UHGV virus genome: UHGV-1359486
DNA: 37,770 bases
Direction: 5' to 3' (one strand)
Source: a virus
Part shown: in pieces, positions 25,339-29,422 of the stretch
Numbering within the stretch: position 1 is the first letter of the stretch
Layout of the letters: each line of letters begins with the position of its first letter
Made by a program: the position numbers and the translations under genes
The notes under the pieces: generated by a model
The model's input: only the letters and a program-made list of their open reading frames with translations
What the model was told of the DNA's origin: nothing
The model's database searches: none

Positions 25339-25605
25339 CTACCGGATATTAATGTTTGATTTTTTACTTGCTACCTGTATGAAATAACGCAATAAATCGA
25401 CTGTCATCCATTGCTTTTCTGTGAGGTGGTATACCCATGAAATCAGTTTCTCTGCTGTATTGCAGACCTCAATATTGATTTCATAATTATTAATTTCGTC
25501 GTCACTTAGACGAAAAACGAAGTAGTTACCTTCAACTGTTAAAATCTTGCTCAATTCTTCGTATTTGGCTTTAACTTCACCGGTATCCATTTGTTTTAAA
25601 CTCAT
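25339..25605 (-). CDS. Hypothetical protein (88 aa) downstream of helicase
   Basis: ATGA overlap with helicase stop. Confidence 0.5.
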
Positions 25606-26969
25606 ACATCTGCTCCTTTAAATCTGCGTTGTGCTGGCTGGCTGCTCTGCTGACAGATATTTGCGGCCATAGCCTGGTCCGTATCGAGAAAGTGCCCGTC
25701 TTTGAATAGCTGATACACGGTCCCTAATTTCCCGAATCGGTTCTTTGTTACGATAATTTCAGCATAGTTCGCTGCGGGGGAGTTCTCATTATACACGCCG
25801 TCCCGGTACAGCATGATGATGGCATCCGCATCCTGCTCAACGCTTCCTGAATCGCGAAGGTCAGCATTCGTCGGGCGCTTGTTTGGGCGTTTTTCCACAT
25901 CACGGGATAACTGGCTGAGAGAGATAACCGGGGTCCGCAGGTCCTTAGCCATTGCTTTCAGGCTTGCTGAAATGTGACCAATAGCCAGGTCATTACGCTC
26001 TGCCTTTGGTTTTTCAATCAGGCCGAGGTAGTCGACAAGGATAAGAGATAAATTCGGATTGGCCCGCTTGTGCCGACCTGATATCGCACGGATTTGTTCG
26101 ACCGTTAATTTACTGGCATCGACAACCCAAACATCGAGATCCACTATGCGGCCCATGCCGACGGTAACCTTTGTCCAGTCTTCCTGGTCCATCTTCGCCG
26201 GATTACGCAGGGATGAAACCGGCATGCTTGCGGCCCCTGCAATCTGACGCTCGATAATCTGCTGAGAGTCCATTTCCATTGAGAAAATCAAAACGCCTTT
26301 CTTCTGGCTGGTCCCGCGAATGGTCTGTGAAGCAACGCCTTTGGTTATTCTCAGCGCCAGCTCTGTCTTACCCATGCCGGGCCGGGCCGCAACAATAACC
26401 AGGTCAACAGGGTTTATCCCGCCAGTAATATCATCAAGGTCCGGGATGCCGGTTTTCAGCGTGTCAGATTCATAGCCATTCTGGACCCGCTTTTCAAGCA
26501 TCTGCGCGTAGTCTTCGGCTATTTCCTTCAGGTGAACGGGCCGGATCTCATCCTGCGGGGCCCGGATTTCAGATGCCTTTGCCAGAAACTGGTCCATTGC
26601 TTCAGTCGCTGCGTCGACGGTCCCGTGTTCGATTTGTCCGCGCACAGAGTCCATCAGCTCAATCATCTTCCGGCGGCAGTGAAGGTCCACAACCATCTTC
26701 GCGTAGCCTTTCAGGTTGGCGGCGCTCGGACAGTTTTTCGCGGCCTCCATCACGTTGCTGAACTGATCACCCATTTCCTCGGCAACCATCAGAACGTCAA
26801 TCAGGCCACGGGCCTTCGCCTGCTTCCTGATAACCTCATAGGTCCTGCGGCAAAATCCGGACCCGAAGAATTCAGGCTCCATCGTGGCGAGAACATCACT
26901 GGCATCCTGTGTTAACCCGCTAATCAGCAGGCCACCGATAACACTCGATTCAACTTCAAAATTAATCAC
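25602..26969 (-). CDS. Replicative DNA helicase, DnaB family (P22 gene 12 analogue)
   Basis: GTG 2 nt after O stop with GGGAGG RBS; Walker A ARPGMGKT; DnaB N-terminal motif; track ORF 25602..27125 extends upstream in frame. Confidence 0.85.
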
Positions 26970-26971
26970 GA

Positions 26972-27808
26972 CTACCTCCCTGTGAGACTTGGTTTTCCTT
27001 CGCGGACCGCTGTGAGCGTGTCTTCCTTCAGCAGATATTCGATGTCGGCCGTCCATCCGCGATCGCCTTCCCCGAAGTAAAATGGCTTGGCCATCCTGAC
27101 GAAAGCCCTGACATAGGCCCGCCATCCGTCGACGTTTGGAGTTGCCAGTTTCGGTATTATTTTCTTCAGGTCACGCTTTCGCTTCTCAGTGACATCGATG
27201 GCGTGAGGCAGGCGATCACCAACTTCCTCGTTGTAGGCAATGAGATATTCGTCGTAATTGATTTTCACTGCCCGGCGCTTTTTAGGTTTAACCAACCCTT
27301 CCGTTTCACCCCCAACGGGGGTATGGGGGTTAGTTTCTTTCTTTTCTTTTGTAATAGTTTCTTTTGTGTGACTCTGTTTTGGTGACAACGCTGTCACCGT
27401 TTTGGTGACACTTTTTGTCACTGTTTTGGTGACATTGTCACCAGAGTAGTTACACCCCGTTATTTCCCACTCACTCACGTTCTTGTTTGGCCCGATTCTC
27501 GGTCCATCCATAACGACTACACGCATTGCTATCAGCTCGTTTTTCGCCTTGTTAACTTTCTGACGTGGCAGGTTGGTCAGTTCGCTTAACTGGCTGTCAG
27601 CAATGCGGTCCGACTTCTTGCCAAAGCCGTAAGTTTTCCGGCAAATGGCGTGTGCTACCTTGGCCTGATTTTTTGTTAAGTCGGCGCCTATCAGGGCCTC
27701 ATACAGAGCATTTGCAAGTCTGGTGTACCCATCATCAAGATCTGCCACCGTTGGCCTCTCTTGCCGTCGTGCGGCTCCAAAGTGAGCGTATGCAACGTTA
27801 CTGTTCAT
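26972..27808 (-). CDS. Replication initiator O (lambda O / P22 gp18 family)
   Basis: N-terminal domain [30 protein letters not shown]...[11 protein letters not shown] matches lambda O; ATG at 27806-27808 with GGAGG. Confidence 0.85.
27331..27442. repeat. Replication origin: AT-rich tract plus three dyad-symmetric iterons (GGTGACA..TGTCAC) at 27381, 27404, 27428
   Basis: Read directly: GGTGACAACGCTGTCACC, GGTGACACTTTTTGTCAC, GGTGACATTGTCACC each preceded by TGTTTT/CGTTTT, about 23-bp period, inside the O gene. Confidence 0.7.
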
Positions 27809-27968
27809 GCCGTTTACCTCCGGTGATTTCCTGTCGGTGTTCAAGGCGTAATTTCGCATCATCAAATGCCGCCCTGAGTGCCTTTGCTCCCTGCTCCGTT
27901 ACGGCTCTCGCCTCACGTTCCCGCATGATGTTTTTGTGCACAGCGCTGTAATTAAACCGTTGTTTCAT
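27798..27968 (-). CDS. Possible small basic protein (56 aa) between cII and O
   Basis: Hand-translated ORF, weak RBS; stop overlaps O start. Confidence 0.25.
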   Translation of the reverse strand: MKQRFNYSAVHKNIMREREARAVTEQGAKALRAAFDDAKLRLEHRQEITGGKRHEQ

Positions 27969-27994
27969 GTATAATTACTCCAGTGTGTGATTTA

Positions 27995-28321
27995 CTAATG
28001 CGCCTCTGCTGCTCCAACAGCCGGGGCGTTTTCTTTTGTTCTCATCAGAGAGAGTTCGCCGATCTGCTTCCACAGAAACCGGTACTCTTCCTCGCTGATT
28101 TTCTTCTCGCCTGGCAAAACAAAATCTGTGATACCGGCTGCGGCCAATGTCTCGCATATCTCCGGTAACTTTTCTGTTCTGCGTAAGACTGTTGAATCGT
28201 GTACACCGAGCAGTTTTGCAACCACTGTCTGTGTGGTACTTCTCAGTGCCTGATGAGCAGTTGCCATCAGATGATTTGACACAAACCGGTTAAACGATTT
28301 GCGTGGATTTGCATTTTCCAT
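27995..28321 (-). CDS. CII-like transcriptional activator
   Basis: 108 aa with HTH (TQTVVAKLLGVHDSTVLRR); between cro and O. Confidence 0.65.
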   Translation of the reverse strand: MENANPRKSFNRFVSNHLMATAHQALRSTTQTVVAKLLGVHDSTVLRRTEKLPEICETLAAAGITDFVLPGEKKISEEEYRFLWKQIGELSLMRTKENAPAVGAAEAH

Positions 28322-28443: not shown

Positions 28444-28644
28444 TTATTTTTTGCCTTGTTGTAGCCACGCCGCGCTACATTTCAGGGCTTTTGATAATTC
28501 AAAAATGAATCGTGGGCGCTTAGTTGAACCAGACTCAATCGCCTGGATAGATTGCTGCTTAATGCCAACAAGCTCAGCGAGTTGAGACTGAGTCAGATTC
28601 AACTCACAACGCCGAGCTTTTACACGTTGAGAGATGGTTTCCAT
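28444..28644 (-). CDS. cro: Cro-like repressor
   Basis: 66 aa XRE-type HTH (LTQSQLAELVGIKQQSIQAIESG); divergent from cI across operator region. Confidence 0.8.
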   Translation of the reverse strand: METISQRVKARRCELNLTQSQLAELVGIKQQSIQAIESGSTKRPRFIFELSKALKCSAAWLQQGKK

Positions 28645-28752: not shown

Positions 28753-29385
28753 ATGAGTCTTGCCAGCAGAGTAAAAAGTCGTCGCCTTGCGCTCGAAATG
28801 ACACAAACAGAGGCAGCAGAAAAAGCAGGAATTAAACAGCAGTCGTGGGCGTCTATTGAAGATGGTAAGACTGTTAAACCTCGTAATATAATTGCGATTG
28901 GCGCTGCATTGCAGTGCGACCCAGGGTGGCTGATGACGGGAGATAATATTCAGCCAATCAGCGAGGTAAATACACGGAAGATACCTCTAATTAGTTACGT
29001 ACAGGCGGGAAACTTGGCTGAAAGCATACCGATCAGTGATTGTGACGGGTCTTTTGAGTACGTTCTTACCGATCAGGACTTATCTCATAATGCGTTCGCC
29101 CTTCGTATTGAAGGTGATTCAATGGAGCCTGATTTTAAAACCGGCGATGTAGTGATTATCGATCCTGAGATAGAGCCGCATCCAGGTGAGTTTGTTGTCG
29201 CGTCTAATGGCGAGCAAGAGGCAACATTCAAGAAATACAGGCCTACCCATGTCATGATTAATGGTGACCAGCACTACGAGTTAGTCCCACTCAATGACGA
29301 CTATCCAGTGCTCGATAGCGAGAAAATCAATCTCCGGATAATCGGTACAATGGTAGAGCACCGAATTTACCGAAGAAAAAGGTAA
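28753..29385 (+). CDS. cI: CI-type repressor (HTH + S24 LexA-like autopeptidase domain)
   Basis: 210 aa; N-terminal HTH; GDSMEP (Ser) and FKKY (Lys) catalytic dyad context. Confidence 0.9.
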   Translation: MSLASRVKSRRLALEMTQTEAAEKAGIKQQSWASIEDGKTVKPRNIIAIGAALQCDPGWLMTGDNIQPISEVNTRKIPLISYVQAGNLAESIPISDCDGSFEYVLTDQDLSHNAFALRIEGDSMEPDFKTGDVVIIDPEIEPHPGEFVVASNGEQEATFKKYRPTHVMINGDQHYELVPLNDDYPVLDSEKINLRIIGTMVEHRIYRRKR

Positions 29386-29398
29386 CACGCATTTAAAC

Positions 29399-29422
29399 CA
29401 ACCCGCTTCGGCGGGTTTTTTT
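29399..29422 (+). terminator. Rho-independent terminator after cI
   Basis: CCCGC-TTCG-GCGGG followed by TTTTTTT. Confidence 0.65.

What the first reader, a model, noticed from the sequence alone, without database searches (positions are those of the whole stretch)
27798..27968. Possible extra 56-aa basic ORF between cII and O
Lambda has no gene here. A 56-aa ORF (MKQRFNYSAVHKNIMRERE...) fills the gap and its stop overlaps the O start. The RBS is weak, so it may be spurious.
Basis: seen in the sequence. Interest (0 to 1): 0.25.

Follow-up and report, generated by a model that had tools for sequence, protein, structure and literature searches.

The report
Conserved small gene upstream of O
The 56-codon reading frame between the cII-like and O-like genes of this Morganella prophage is a real, conserved small protein gene, a distant relative of the function-unknown orf48 that phage P22 carries at the same spot, so it is an ordinary though uncharacterised feature.

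Summary
The ORF exists as described, on the minus strand (27968 to 27798; 56 codons plus TAA). Its stop overlaps the O-like start (ATG at 27808) by 11 nt. The RBS is not weak: GGAG lies 9 nt before the ATG, and the motif GGAGTAATTATAC-ATG recurs in over 80 related loci.

The frame is open in all 83 related loci examined. One of them is fused to the initiator gene and one has an altered 5' end.

Pooled dN/dS is about 0.18-0.20 in this frame, against 0.8-1.7 in four other frames and about 0.35 in the antisense frame that shares third positions. Invariant Arg, Val, Thr, Gly, Leu and Ala columns each use 4-6 synonymous codons. It is therefore a protein-coding gene.

NCBI already lists the exact protein as "hypothetical protein" of Morganella morganii.

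P22 has orf48 (Pfam DUF2740) in the same place, with the oop promoter over its start and its stop overlapping gene 18. The window protein is a remote relative: hhalign 86%, E 5e-6; PHROG 1913 E 2e-4; below Pfam's cut-off.

The literature already describes the cII-oop-orf-O-P layout and says lambda lacks this ORF. Function is unknown. My best guess is a basic helical early protein made in step with the replication initiator.

Low interest; new member of a known kind.

The parts
27798..27968 (-). Small ORF: 56 codons plus TAA. Encodes a basic, predicted helical protein and is an orf48-like gene.
   Evidence: The ORF and its translation are. Related loci keep the frame open. Pooled dN/dS is 0.18-0.20 in this frame only. 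Conserved amino-acid columns use many synonymous codons. The exact protein is in NCBI as a hypothetical protein of Morganella morganii. The AF2 model is helical, H7-21 and H25-49, pLDDT 75.
27978..27981 (-). Shine-Dalgarno GGAG of the small ORF, 9 nt upstream of the ATG.
   Evidence: The sequence is. The block (G)GAG-TAATTATAC-ATG is conserved while the sequence further upstream is mosaic.
27970..27975 (+). TATAAT, the putative -10 of an oop-type (pO-like) antisense promoter. It overlaps the SD-ATG spacer of the small ORF.
   Evidence: Read from the sequence. P22 has an annotated oop promoter overlapping the orf48 start at the equivalent place. TATAAT or CATAAT is kept in nearly all related loci. 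The consensus scan did not call a promoter here because the -35 is poor. Promoter function is inferred, not shown.
27946..27952 (+). Putative weak -35 region (cTGTAAt) of the antisense promoter, inside codons 6-8 of the small ORF.
   Evidence: Positioned 17-18 nt from the -10 (read). Codons 5-13 show unusually little synonymous variation, which fits an extra DNA-level constraint. Inferred only.
27982..28037 (+). Predicted oop-like antisense RNA of about 55 nt. Its 5' end is inferred. It ends in a hairpin at 28000-28029 plus a U-run, antisense to the 3' end of the cII-like gene.
   Evidence: The terminator-like site was found by the scan. The fold is -18.5 kcal/mol, z -2.3. The layout matches the annotated P22 oop terminator and promoter. 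No Rfam family matched.
27995..28321 (-). cII-like transcriptional activator gene (108 aa), upstream neighbour.
   Evidence: PHROG 191 E 1e-17. It shows a weak Pfam Phage_CII match. It is 90% identical in DNA to Morganella phage IME1369_01.
27817..27821 (-). GGAGG Shine-Dalgarno of the O-like gene. It lies inside codons G50-G51-K52 of the small ORF.
   Evidence: The sequence is. The junction strings of all loci keep GGAGG/GGAGGG followed by (C)ATGA, which explains the conserved C-terminal GGKxHE.
26972..27808 (-). O-like replication initiator gene (278 aa). Its ATG lies 11 nt inside the small ORF.
   Evidence: PF04492 E 8e-39 and PHROG 345 E 1.5e-63.
27369..27455 (.). Four iteron-like repeats of about 19-20 nt (TGTCACCGTTTTGGTGACA) inside the O-like gene. 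This is the probable replication origin.
   Evidence: the repeat finder family D1, spacing 20-24 nt. The arrangement resembles ori inside O in lambda and P22; the P22 rep_origin annotation is.
25602..26969 (-). DnaB-type helicase gene (P22 gene 12-like). Probable GTG start at 26969, after a GGGAGG.
   Evidence: PF03796 E 4e-77 and PF00772 E 4e-12. The start was read.

Best explanation
What it is. This is a genuine early phage gene. It is the Morganellaceae counterpart of the orf48-type small ORF that P22, HK022, HK620 and many Stx phages carry between the cII/oop region and the replication initiator gene. Lambda lacks it.

Shown:
- The frame is conserved and under purifying selection on the amino-acid sequence.
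- It has its own conserved Shine-Dalgarno.
- Its stop codon always overlaps the initiator's ATG, by 4, 8 or 11 nt.
- The initiator's Shine-Dalgarno lies inside its last codons.
- The protein is basic and predicted to be helical.

Inferred mechanism:
- The gene is transcribed as part of the early rightward operon, after the cII-like gene.
- Ribosomes finishing it terminate within the initiator's start region. The small protein and the initiator are therefore made together, by translational coupling.
- The roughly 6.6 kDa product acts as a dispensable accessory factor in early development.
- Its fixed position suggests a role at or around replication initiation or its control, rather than as an essential replication protein.

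Cis signals in the same block. The 5' end of the gene also carries cis-acting signals on the other strand. These are the -10, and probably the -35, of an oop-type antisense promoter. The gene sits in a conserved block of about 215 bp that joins exchangeable immunity and replication modules.

Confidence by level:
- Real coding gene: about 0.9.
- Same kind as P22 orf48: about 0.8.
- Coupled expression with the initiator: about 0.6.
- A replication-related role for the protein: about 0.3.
For: Existence and signals. The ORF, its SD and the overlap with O are read.

Conservation. The word-index search found 15 protein clusters. The viral-contig scan found 80 loci. Three deposited phages annotate the gene just upstream of O. 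All loci keep the ATG and an open frame, and indels are in multiples of three.

Selection. Pooled Nei-Gojobori values in the ORF frame are pS 0.64, pN 0.24 and dN/dS 0.20 (0.18 for the core). Four other frames give 0.8-1.7, and the antisense frame that shares third positions gives 0.34-0.39. Entropy is highest at third codon positions. Invariant Arg, Val, Thr, Gly, Leu and Ala columns use 4-6 synonymous codons.

Coupling anatomy. Every complete locus has the junction GGAGG-N-(C)ATGA...TAA.

Kinship with P22 orf48:
- P22 has the same position and the same stop/start overlap, and its annotated oop promoter and terminator are laid out the same way.
- hhalign of the family profile against P22 Orf48 gives probability 86% and E 4.8e-6.
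- PHROG 1913, a 48-position profile, matches at E 2e-4 over positions 5-47.
- Bridging sequences hit both sides. P0021 scores 5e-8 against this family's profile and 4e-5 against DUF2740. P0018 scores 2e-4 against DUF2740.

Literature. [quoted passage not shown]

Dispensability. Lambda lacks the gene. Morganella phage IME1369_01 has the same cII and the same GGAGTAATTATACATG, but only a 19-codon mini-ORF before a different O.

Structure. AF2 predicts helices H7-21 and H25-49 at pLDDT 75.
Against: - There is no direct evidence of translation or of any phenotype. No paper in the searchable library assigns a function to orf48 or DUF2740.
- The match to Pfam DUF2740 is below threshold: 11.7 bits against a cut-off of 27, E 0.22. 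The hhalign probability is only 86%.
- Part of the conservation is explained by overlapping signals rather than by the protein. The C-terminal GGKxHE is the initiator's SD plus ATG. Codons 5-13 show little synonymous change, as expected if the antisense promoter constrains them.
- The same small ORF precedes at least three unrelated initiator N-terminal domains. This argues against a specific partnership with one initiator.
- The initiator has its own strong SD, so coupling may not be needed.
- Structure comparisons gave nothing, and a tethered-dimer model was unconfident.
- The dN/dS figures are pooled over non-independent pairs and carry no formal test.
Confidence: 0.8

Rival explanations
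1. Leader-ORF reading. The frame matters only as a short upstream ORF that brings ribosomes to the initiator's start. The peptide itself has no function.
For: The stop/start overlap and the embedded SD of the initiator are universal. A relative with another initiator keeps the same translation start, followed by only a 19-codon mini-ORF that also runs into the O start. The C-terminal residues are dictated by the initiator's SD and ATG.
Against: The amino-acid sequence of codons 14-49 is conserved through heavy synonymous change, with dN/dS about 0.18 and up to six Arg codons in one column. Length is held at 48-60 codons from Morganellaceae phages to P22. The initiator has its own GGAGG at good spacing.
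Confidence: 0.1
2. Accessory-gene reading. The ORF is a real small protein, but an accessory gene of the moron or host-interaction type. It has lodged at a module junction and has nothing to do with replication.
For: It sits exactly at a mosaic boundary. Identical copies are flanked by different cII-side sequences and by initiators of different families. Lambda and IME1369_01 do without it. According to Hayes 2012, other lambdoid phages such as HK97 carry a different small ORF at this position.
Against: It has no independent promoter or terminator of its own, and its stop is always fused to the initiator's start. PADLOC gave no match, although that library covers defence rather than counter-defence. 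No evidence points to any particular target.
Confidence: 0.25
3. Non-coding reading. The frame is open only because the DNA is conserved for other reasons: the antisense oop promoter, the initiator's ribosome-binding region, and a homology patch used for module exchange.
For: The 5' codons show little synonymous change, and the 3' codons encode the initiator's SD and ATG. The conserved block extends about 30 nt into the initiator gene. The -10 TATAAT overlaps the start region.
Against: The middle 36 codons are highly diverged at synonymous sites (pS about 0.66) while the protein is kept. Other frames show dN/dS near or above 1. Indels are in-frame. No stop appears in 59 distinct nucleotide versions.
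Confidence: 0.04

Closest known systems
P22 orf48 / HK022 orf48 / HK620 hkaW (Pfam DUF2740, PF10872; PHROG 1913)
   Same: - It lies at the same place, between the cII-like gene with its oop terminator and the O-like gene.
- The stop overlaps the initiator ATG; P22 reads GGTCATGAGTAA.
- Both share the GGAGTAATTAT translation start region, and an antisense -10 lies over the start.
- Size is similar, at 48-60 aa.
- Both share the HKNI-R-R motif, the central Gly and a KL-L segment.
- Function is unknown in both.
   Different: - Identity to P22 Orf48 is only about 30%.
- The window protein is 8 residues longer, mainly near the C-terminus.
- It fails Pfam's gathering score: 11.7 against 27 bits.
- It forms its own cluster, restricted here to Morganella, Providencia, Proteus and Photorhabdus sequences.
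Lambda cII-oop-O region
   Same: The gene order is cro, cII, antisense oop with its terminator inside the 3' end of cII, then an initiator gene that contains the origin iterons.
   Different: In lambda the conserved start region is followed directly by O, with no small ORF. The window's loader/helicase partner is a DnaB-type helicase as in P22, not lambda P.
HK97 gp53-type small ORF at the same position
   Same: According to Hayes 2012 it is another short ORF lying just left of the O-like gene in some lambdoid phages.
   Different: That paper lists it as a separate type of ORF. I did not compare the sequences here.
Leader peptides of plasmid replication genes (IncFII tap, IncB/IncI repY type). 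This comparison is from my own knowledge and was not tested here.
   Same: A short ORF whose stop overlaps the start of a replication initiator gene, so that initiator translation depends on it. There is an antisense RNA nearby.
   Different: In those plasmids the antisense RNA pairs with the leader's mRNA. Here the predicted antisense RNA is transcribed away from the small ORF, towards cII. In addition, the peptide sequence here is itself conserved.

Membership tests
Pfam DUF2740 (PF10872), the P22 Orf48 family | Score at or above Pfam's gathering cut-off (27 bits) | tested here: not met
   The window protein scores 11.7 bits, E 0.22. P22 Orf48 scores 98.3 bits. The intermediates P0021 (23.5 bits) and P0018 (21.2 bits) are also below the cut-off.
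Pfam DUF2740 (PF10872), the P22 Orf48 family | Detectable sequence homology to P22 Orf48 by profile methods | tested here: met
   hhalign of the 19-sequence family profile against P22 Orf48 gives probability 86% and E 4.8e-6 over 34 columns. P0021 hits the family profile at 5e-8 in a library of 1.8 billion proteins, and hits DUF2740 at 4e-5. The support is moderate, not overwhelming.
PHROG 1913 (48-position profile; labelled 'tail protein') | Significant full-length match to the profile | tested here: met
   E 2e-4, 22.2 bits, protein residues 3-45 against profile positions 5-47 of 48. The 'tail protein' label is contradicted by the gene's position in every genome seen.
Lambdoid orf48-type small ORF (positional class cII-oop-orf-O) | Lies between the cII-like gene/oop and the O-like initiator, on the same strand | tested here: met
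   This holds in the window, in three deposited phages, in P22 and in the related loci. The class is described in PMC3349717.
Lambdoid orf48-type small ORF (positional class cII-oop-orf-O) | Stop codon overlaps the initiator's start codon | tested here: met
   The window overlap is 11 nt. Relatives overlap by 4, 8 or 11 nt, and P22 by 8 nt.
Lambdoid orf48-type small ORF (positional class cII-oop-orf-O) | The product is actually made and has a function | not testable with these tools
   The evidence is evolutionary only. No functional report was found.
oop-type antisense RNA with pO promoter | Intrinsic terminator on the antisense strand inside the 3' end of the cII-like gene | tested here: met
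   The scan found a hairpin at 28010-28028, extended by the fold to 28000-28029. A TTTTCTTTT run follows on the plus strand. P22 has an equivalent annotated feature.
oop-type antisense RNA with pO promoter | Functional sigma-70 promoter directing the antisense RNA | tested here: inconclusive
   There is a perfect TATAAT at 27970-27975, conserved in relatives. The best -35 matches only 2-3 of 6 positions, and the consensus scan did not report a promoter. No transcript data are available. No Rfam family matched the region.

The most novel reading that the evidence does not exclude
The small protein could be a dedicated regulator of replication onset that works independently of the initiator's family. 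One route is recognition of the N-terminal peptide MSNV(A/S)YA(DFG), which otherwise unrelated initiators downstream of it share. From my own knowledge, the N-terminus of lambda O is a ClpX recognition signal, so this peptide could be a turnover tag. The other route is action on the convergent pR/pO promoter pair that, in lambda, tunes origin firing (PMC3985674). Nothing here tests either idea. The evidence only shows that the small ORF and the first ten or so initiator codons travel together as one conserved block.
Probability: 0.1. Interest if true: 0.5.

Novelty: new member of a known kind. Interest (0 to 1): 0.15.

Why it matters
The practical value is modest.

- **Annotation.** The ORF should be kept as a gene. 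It can be labelled orf48-like (a remote DUF2740 relative). The PHROG label 'tail protein' that is spreading to this family is wrong.
- **An untested family.** A small protein whose sequence is kept from Morganellaceae phages to P22 and Stx phages, always fused to the start of the replication initiator, has never been tested. It is an easy target for a nonsense-mutant experiment in P22.
- **Phage mosaicism.** The ORF belongs to a conserved block of about 215 bp between exchangeable immunity and replication modules.

Tried and rejected
**Searches that found nothing**
- Pfam at default E, NCBIfam and PADLOC gave no hits for the window protein.
- Foldseek of the AF2 model against the PDB gave no match, even at E 10.
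- A profile search of PDB sequences gave only chance-level hits, E >= 0.15, for example to the uS5 tail.
- Rfam at a permissive threshold found no oop-like family. The only hit was a sub-threshold rsmX-like match elsewhere.

**Structure ideas**
- The tethered homodimer (two copies joined by a 30-residue Gly/Ser linker) gave pLDDT 46. It says nothing about dimerisation.
- I considered a ribbon-helix-helix fold, because of an Arc-like N-terminal FNYSAV segment and a central Gly. I dropped it. AF2 starts the first helix at residue 7 and predicts no strand, and no RHH family matched.

**Literature**
- 'DUF2740' returned no papers, and 'hkaW' returned only noise.
- The 'orf48' of Silas et al. (gnarl1; PMC12373910) is a number from that screen's own list. 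I found nothing linking it to P22 orf48.

**Promoter scan and megablast**
- The promoter scan does not call pO in the window, so the antisense promoter rests on analogy and conservation only.
- Megablast to phage records matched only the cII part, in Morganella phage IME1369_01. That phage turned out to lack the gene.

Full report
**1. What is in the sequence**

The finding gives no strand; the ORF is on the minus strand. It runs from the ATG at 27968-27966 to the TAA at 27800-27798.

The neighbourhood on the minus strand, in order:
- A cro-like ORF at 28444..28644.
- A cII-like gene at 27995..28321 (PHROG 191, E 1e-17).
- The small ORF.
- An O-like initiator at 26972..27808 (PF04492, E 8e-39).
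- A DnaB-type helicase at 25602..26969, with a probable GTG start.

A cI/LexA-like repressor ORF lies on the other strand at 28753..29385. This is the P22-type version of the lambdoid early-right operon.

The O-like ATG is at 27808. The small ORF and O therefore overlap by 11 nt, ATGAACAGTAA. O's Shine-Dalgarno, GGAGG at 27821-27817, is read as Gly-Gly-Lys in the small ORF.

The small ORF's own RBS is GGAG at 27981-27978, followed by a 9-nt A/T-rich spacer. That is a normal ribosome-binding site, not a weak one.

An open frame of 56 codons is not rare by chance: about 7% per frame, by my arithmetic. The case rests on comparison with relatives.

**2. Conservation and coding signature**

How widely the ORF is found:
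- The word-index protein search found 15 clusters at 70-98% identity.
- An exhaustive profile search of 1.8 billion representatives found only 9 clusters, so the family is small and narrow.
- The exact protein is in NCBI as 'hypothetical protein' of Morganella morganii and was seen on 192 contigs. The window is therefore almost certainly a Morganella prophage.
- tblastn found the gene in Providencia phages PSTNGR2lys and PSTCR7lys, in Proteus phage vB_BPM-V3 and in an unannotated Salmonella phage record.
- The three annotated phage records call it a hypothetical protein. It sits directly before 'DNA replication protein O', with overlapping coordinates.
- A scan of viral contigs returned 80 more loci.

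Integrity of the frame:
- In all 83 loci the ATG is present and the frame is open.
- Length varies only by in-frame indels near the N-terminus.
- There are two exceptions. In L053 a frame change near the 3' end fuses the ORF to the initiator. L057 has an altered 5' end.

Substitution pattern on 57 distinct nucleotide versions:

| Frame | Region | pS | pN | dN/dS |
|---|---|---|---|---|
| ORF frame | full length | 0.64 | 0.24 | 0.20 |
| ORF frame | codons 10-47 | - | - | 0.18 |
| Two other sense frames and two antisense frames | - | - | - | 0.8-1.7 |
| Antisense frame sharing third positions | - | - | - | 0.34-0.39 |

The intermediate value in the last row is expected for the antisense frame that shares third codon positions.

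The per-column table makes the same point without a model. Invariant or nearly invariant Arg, Val, Thr, Gly, Leu and Ala columns use four to six different codons.

These figures are pooled over non-independent pairs and are not a formal test. The contrast between frames is nonetheless large. I conclude that the frame encodes a protein whose sequence is under selection.

**3. What is not protein-level conservation**

Two ends of the ORF are also shaped by overlapping signals.

*The 3' end.* The conserved C-terminal GGKxHE is simply the initiator's GGAGG, a spacer and (C)ATGA read in another frame.

*The 5' end.*
- Codons 5-13 (F-N-Y-S-A-V-H-K-N) show very little synonymous change.
- On the other strand, TATAAT at 27970-27975 overlaps the SD-ATG spacer. 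TATAAT or CATAAT is kept in nearly every relative, while sequence further upstream is unrelated.
- In the curated P22 record, an oop promoter is annotated exactly over the orf48 start. An oop terminator is annotated inside the 3' end of c1.
- The window has the matching terminator. On the plus strand, a hairpin at 28000-28029 is followed by TTTTCTTTT, antisense to the last codons of the cII-like gene.
- I therefore predict an oop-like RNA of about 55 nt, transcribed away from the small ORF.
- This prediction is by analogy only. The -35 is poor, the consensus scan did not call the promoter, and no Rfam family matched.

**4. Relation to known genes**

*P22.* P22 carries orf48 (48 aa) between c1/oop and gene 18. 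It ends GGTCATGAGTAA, so its stop overlaps the gene 18 start. It is preceded by the same GGAGTAATTAT.

*Sequence evidence for kinship:*
- P22 Orf48 is the founding type of Pfam DUF2740 (98 bits).
- The window protein reaches only 11.7 bits against that model, below the cut-off of 27.
- The family profile aligns to P22 Orf48 with 86% probability, E 4.8e-6.
- PHROG 1913, a 48-position profile, matches at E 2e-4 over nearly its full length.
- Intermediate proteins (P0021, P0018) hit both sides.
- The joint alignment keeps H-K-N, an Arg, the central Gly and an Ala.

I regard the window protein as a remote relative forming its own subfamily, not as a Pfam-defined member.

*Distribution of orf48.* tblastn with P22 Orf48 finds 127 phage records from Salmonella, E. 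coli, Stx phages and Erwinia. In all 40 listed records whose annotation is shown, the match lies against the replication gene.

*Literature.* Hayes et al. [quoted passage not shown] Other papers mention orf48 only as a landmark in constructs. I found no functional study.

**5. The block it belongs to**

*Upstream.* Similarity among loci stops at the small ORF's SD.
- Identical copies of the ORF are preceded either by a cII 3' end with an oop-type terminator, as in the window.
- Or they are preceded by a GGGGAA...TTCCCC-T6 hairpin.

*Downstream.*
- Similarity continues about 30 nt into the initiator gene and then stops.
- The proteins that follow share only MSNV(A/S)YA(DFG) at the N-terminus.
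- They include PF04492-type O proteins and at least two types with no Pfam match.

The small ORF thus sits in a conserved block of about 215 bp between exchangeable modules. It is not tied to one initiator family.

*A relative without the gene.* Morganella phage IME1369_01 has a 90% identical cII and the same GGAGTAATTATACATG. Only a 19-codon mini-ORF follows, running into a different O gene whose neighbour is annotated as DnaC-like. Together with lambda, this shows the protein is dispensable for lambdoid replication as such.

**6. How it probably works**

*Shown:*
- It is a conserved coding frame with its own SD.
- Its stop always lies within the initiator's start region.
- The initiator's SD lies inside it.

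*Inferred:*
- It is expressed from the early rightward transcript.
- Terminating ribosomes are delivered to the initiator's ATG, so the two proteins are made together.

*The product.* The protein is basic. AlphaFold2 predicts it as helical, H7-21 and H25-49, at mean pLDDT 75. Hairpin versus one long helix is not settled. The tethered-dimer run drew a single helix, but at pLDDT 46.

*My best guess.* It is a non-essential accessory factor acting around the onset of replication or its control. I give that guess about 0.3.

*The main alternative.* It could be an unrelated accessory gene parked at a module junction (0.25).

*Less likely readings.* A pure leader-ORF role (0.1) and a non-coding artefact (0.04) are both disfavoured by the amino-acid-level selection.

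**7. Verdict**

It is wrong about the RBS and about possible spuriousness.
- The feature is a new, divergent member of a known, function-unknown kind, so interest is low.

Noticed in passing
window 27369-27455 (and the T-rich stretch 27325-27368): Four iteron-like repeats of about 19-20 nt (TGTCACCGTTTTGGTGACA, spacing 20-24 nt) lie inside the O-like gene, next to a T-rich stretch. This is probably the phage origin, placed as in lambda and P22. The repeats encode the [14 protein letters not shown] segment of the initiator.
   Followed up: partly
L011, L013, L016, L028, L012 and others, first ~10 codons of the gene after the small ORF (e.g. L011 3161-3190): Initiator proteins of at least three unrelated N-terminal types all begin MSNV(A/S)YA(DFG). 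These are PF04492 proteins and two types with no Pfam match. The DNA similarity ends about 30 nt into the gene. This could be a shared functional N-terminal tag or merely a recombination joint; I did not resolve which.
   Followed up: partly
L053 2977-4032: In one viral contig the small ORF is fused in frame to the initiator, giving a single 351-codon ORF (...ELLGGKRMSNVAYADFG...). This is either a real frameshift variant or a sequencing error.
   Followed up: no
L003 (Morganella phage IME1369_01) 2860-2995: This phage has the same cII and the same GGAGTAATTATACATG, but only a 19-codon mini-ORF (MKVITKQRYGGRYEYSGSV) overlapping the start of a different O gene. A strong sense-strand hairpin followed by a T-run (GGGAAAC...GTTTCCC-T6) lies between cII and it.
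   Followed up: partly
L007, L008, L009, L023, L039, L010, L032, L045 etc., about 20-60 nt upstream of the small ORF: Many relatives carry a GGGGAA...TTCCCC hairpin followed by T6 between the cII-side DNA and the small ORF. It looks like an intrinsic, possibly bidirectional, terminator on the sense strand. The window lacks it.
   Followed up: no
PHROG 1913; phage records NC_018275, NC_027398, PV189403, NC_070949: The PHROG family that holds P22 Orf48 is labelled 'tail protein'. That label has been copied into several phage annotations for the small gene next to the replication initiator. Its position in the early replication region makes the label very unlikely.
   Followed up: partly
window 29337-29421 (+): A sub-threshold Rfam match to rsmX (26.9 bits against a gathering score of 56, E 0.02) lies across the 3' end of the cI-like repressor gene. 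It is probably chance.
   Followed up: no
L057 2884-3150: One relative has a changed 5' end: the small ORF's usual start region is replaced, and the longest frame is 88 codons. It may be a decayed or rearranged copy.
   Followed up: no
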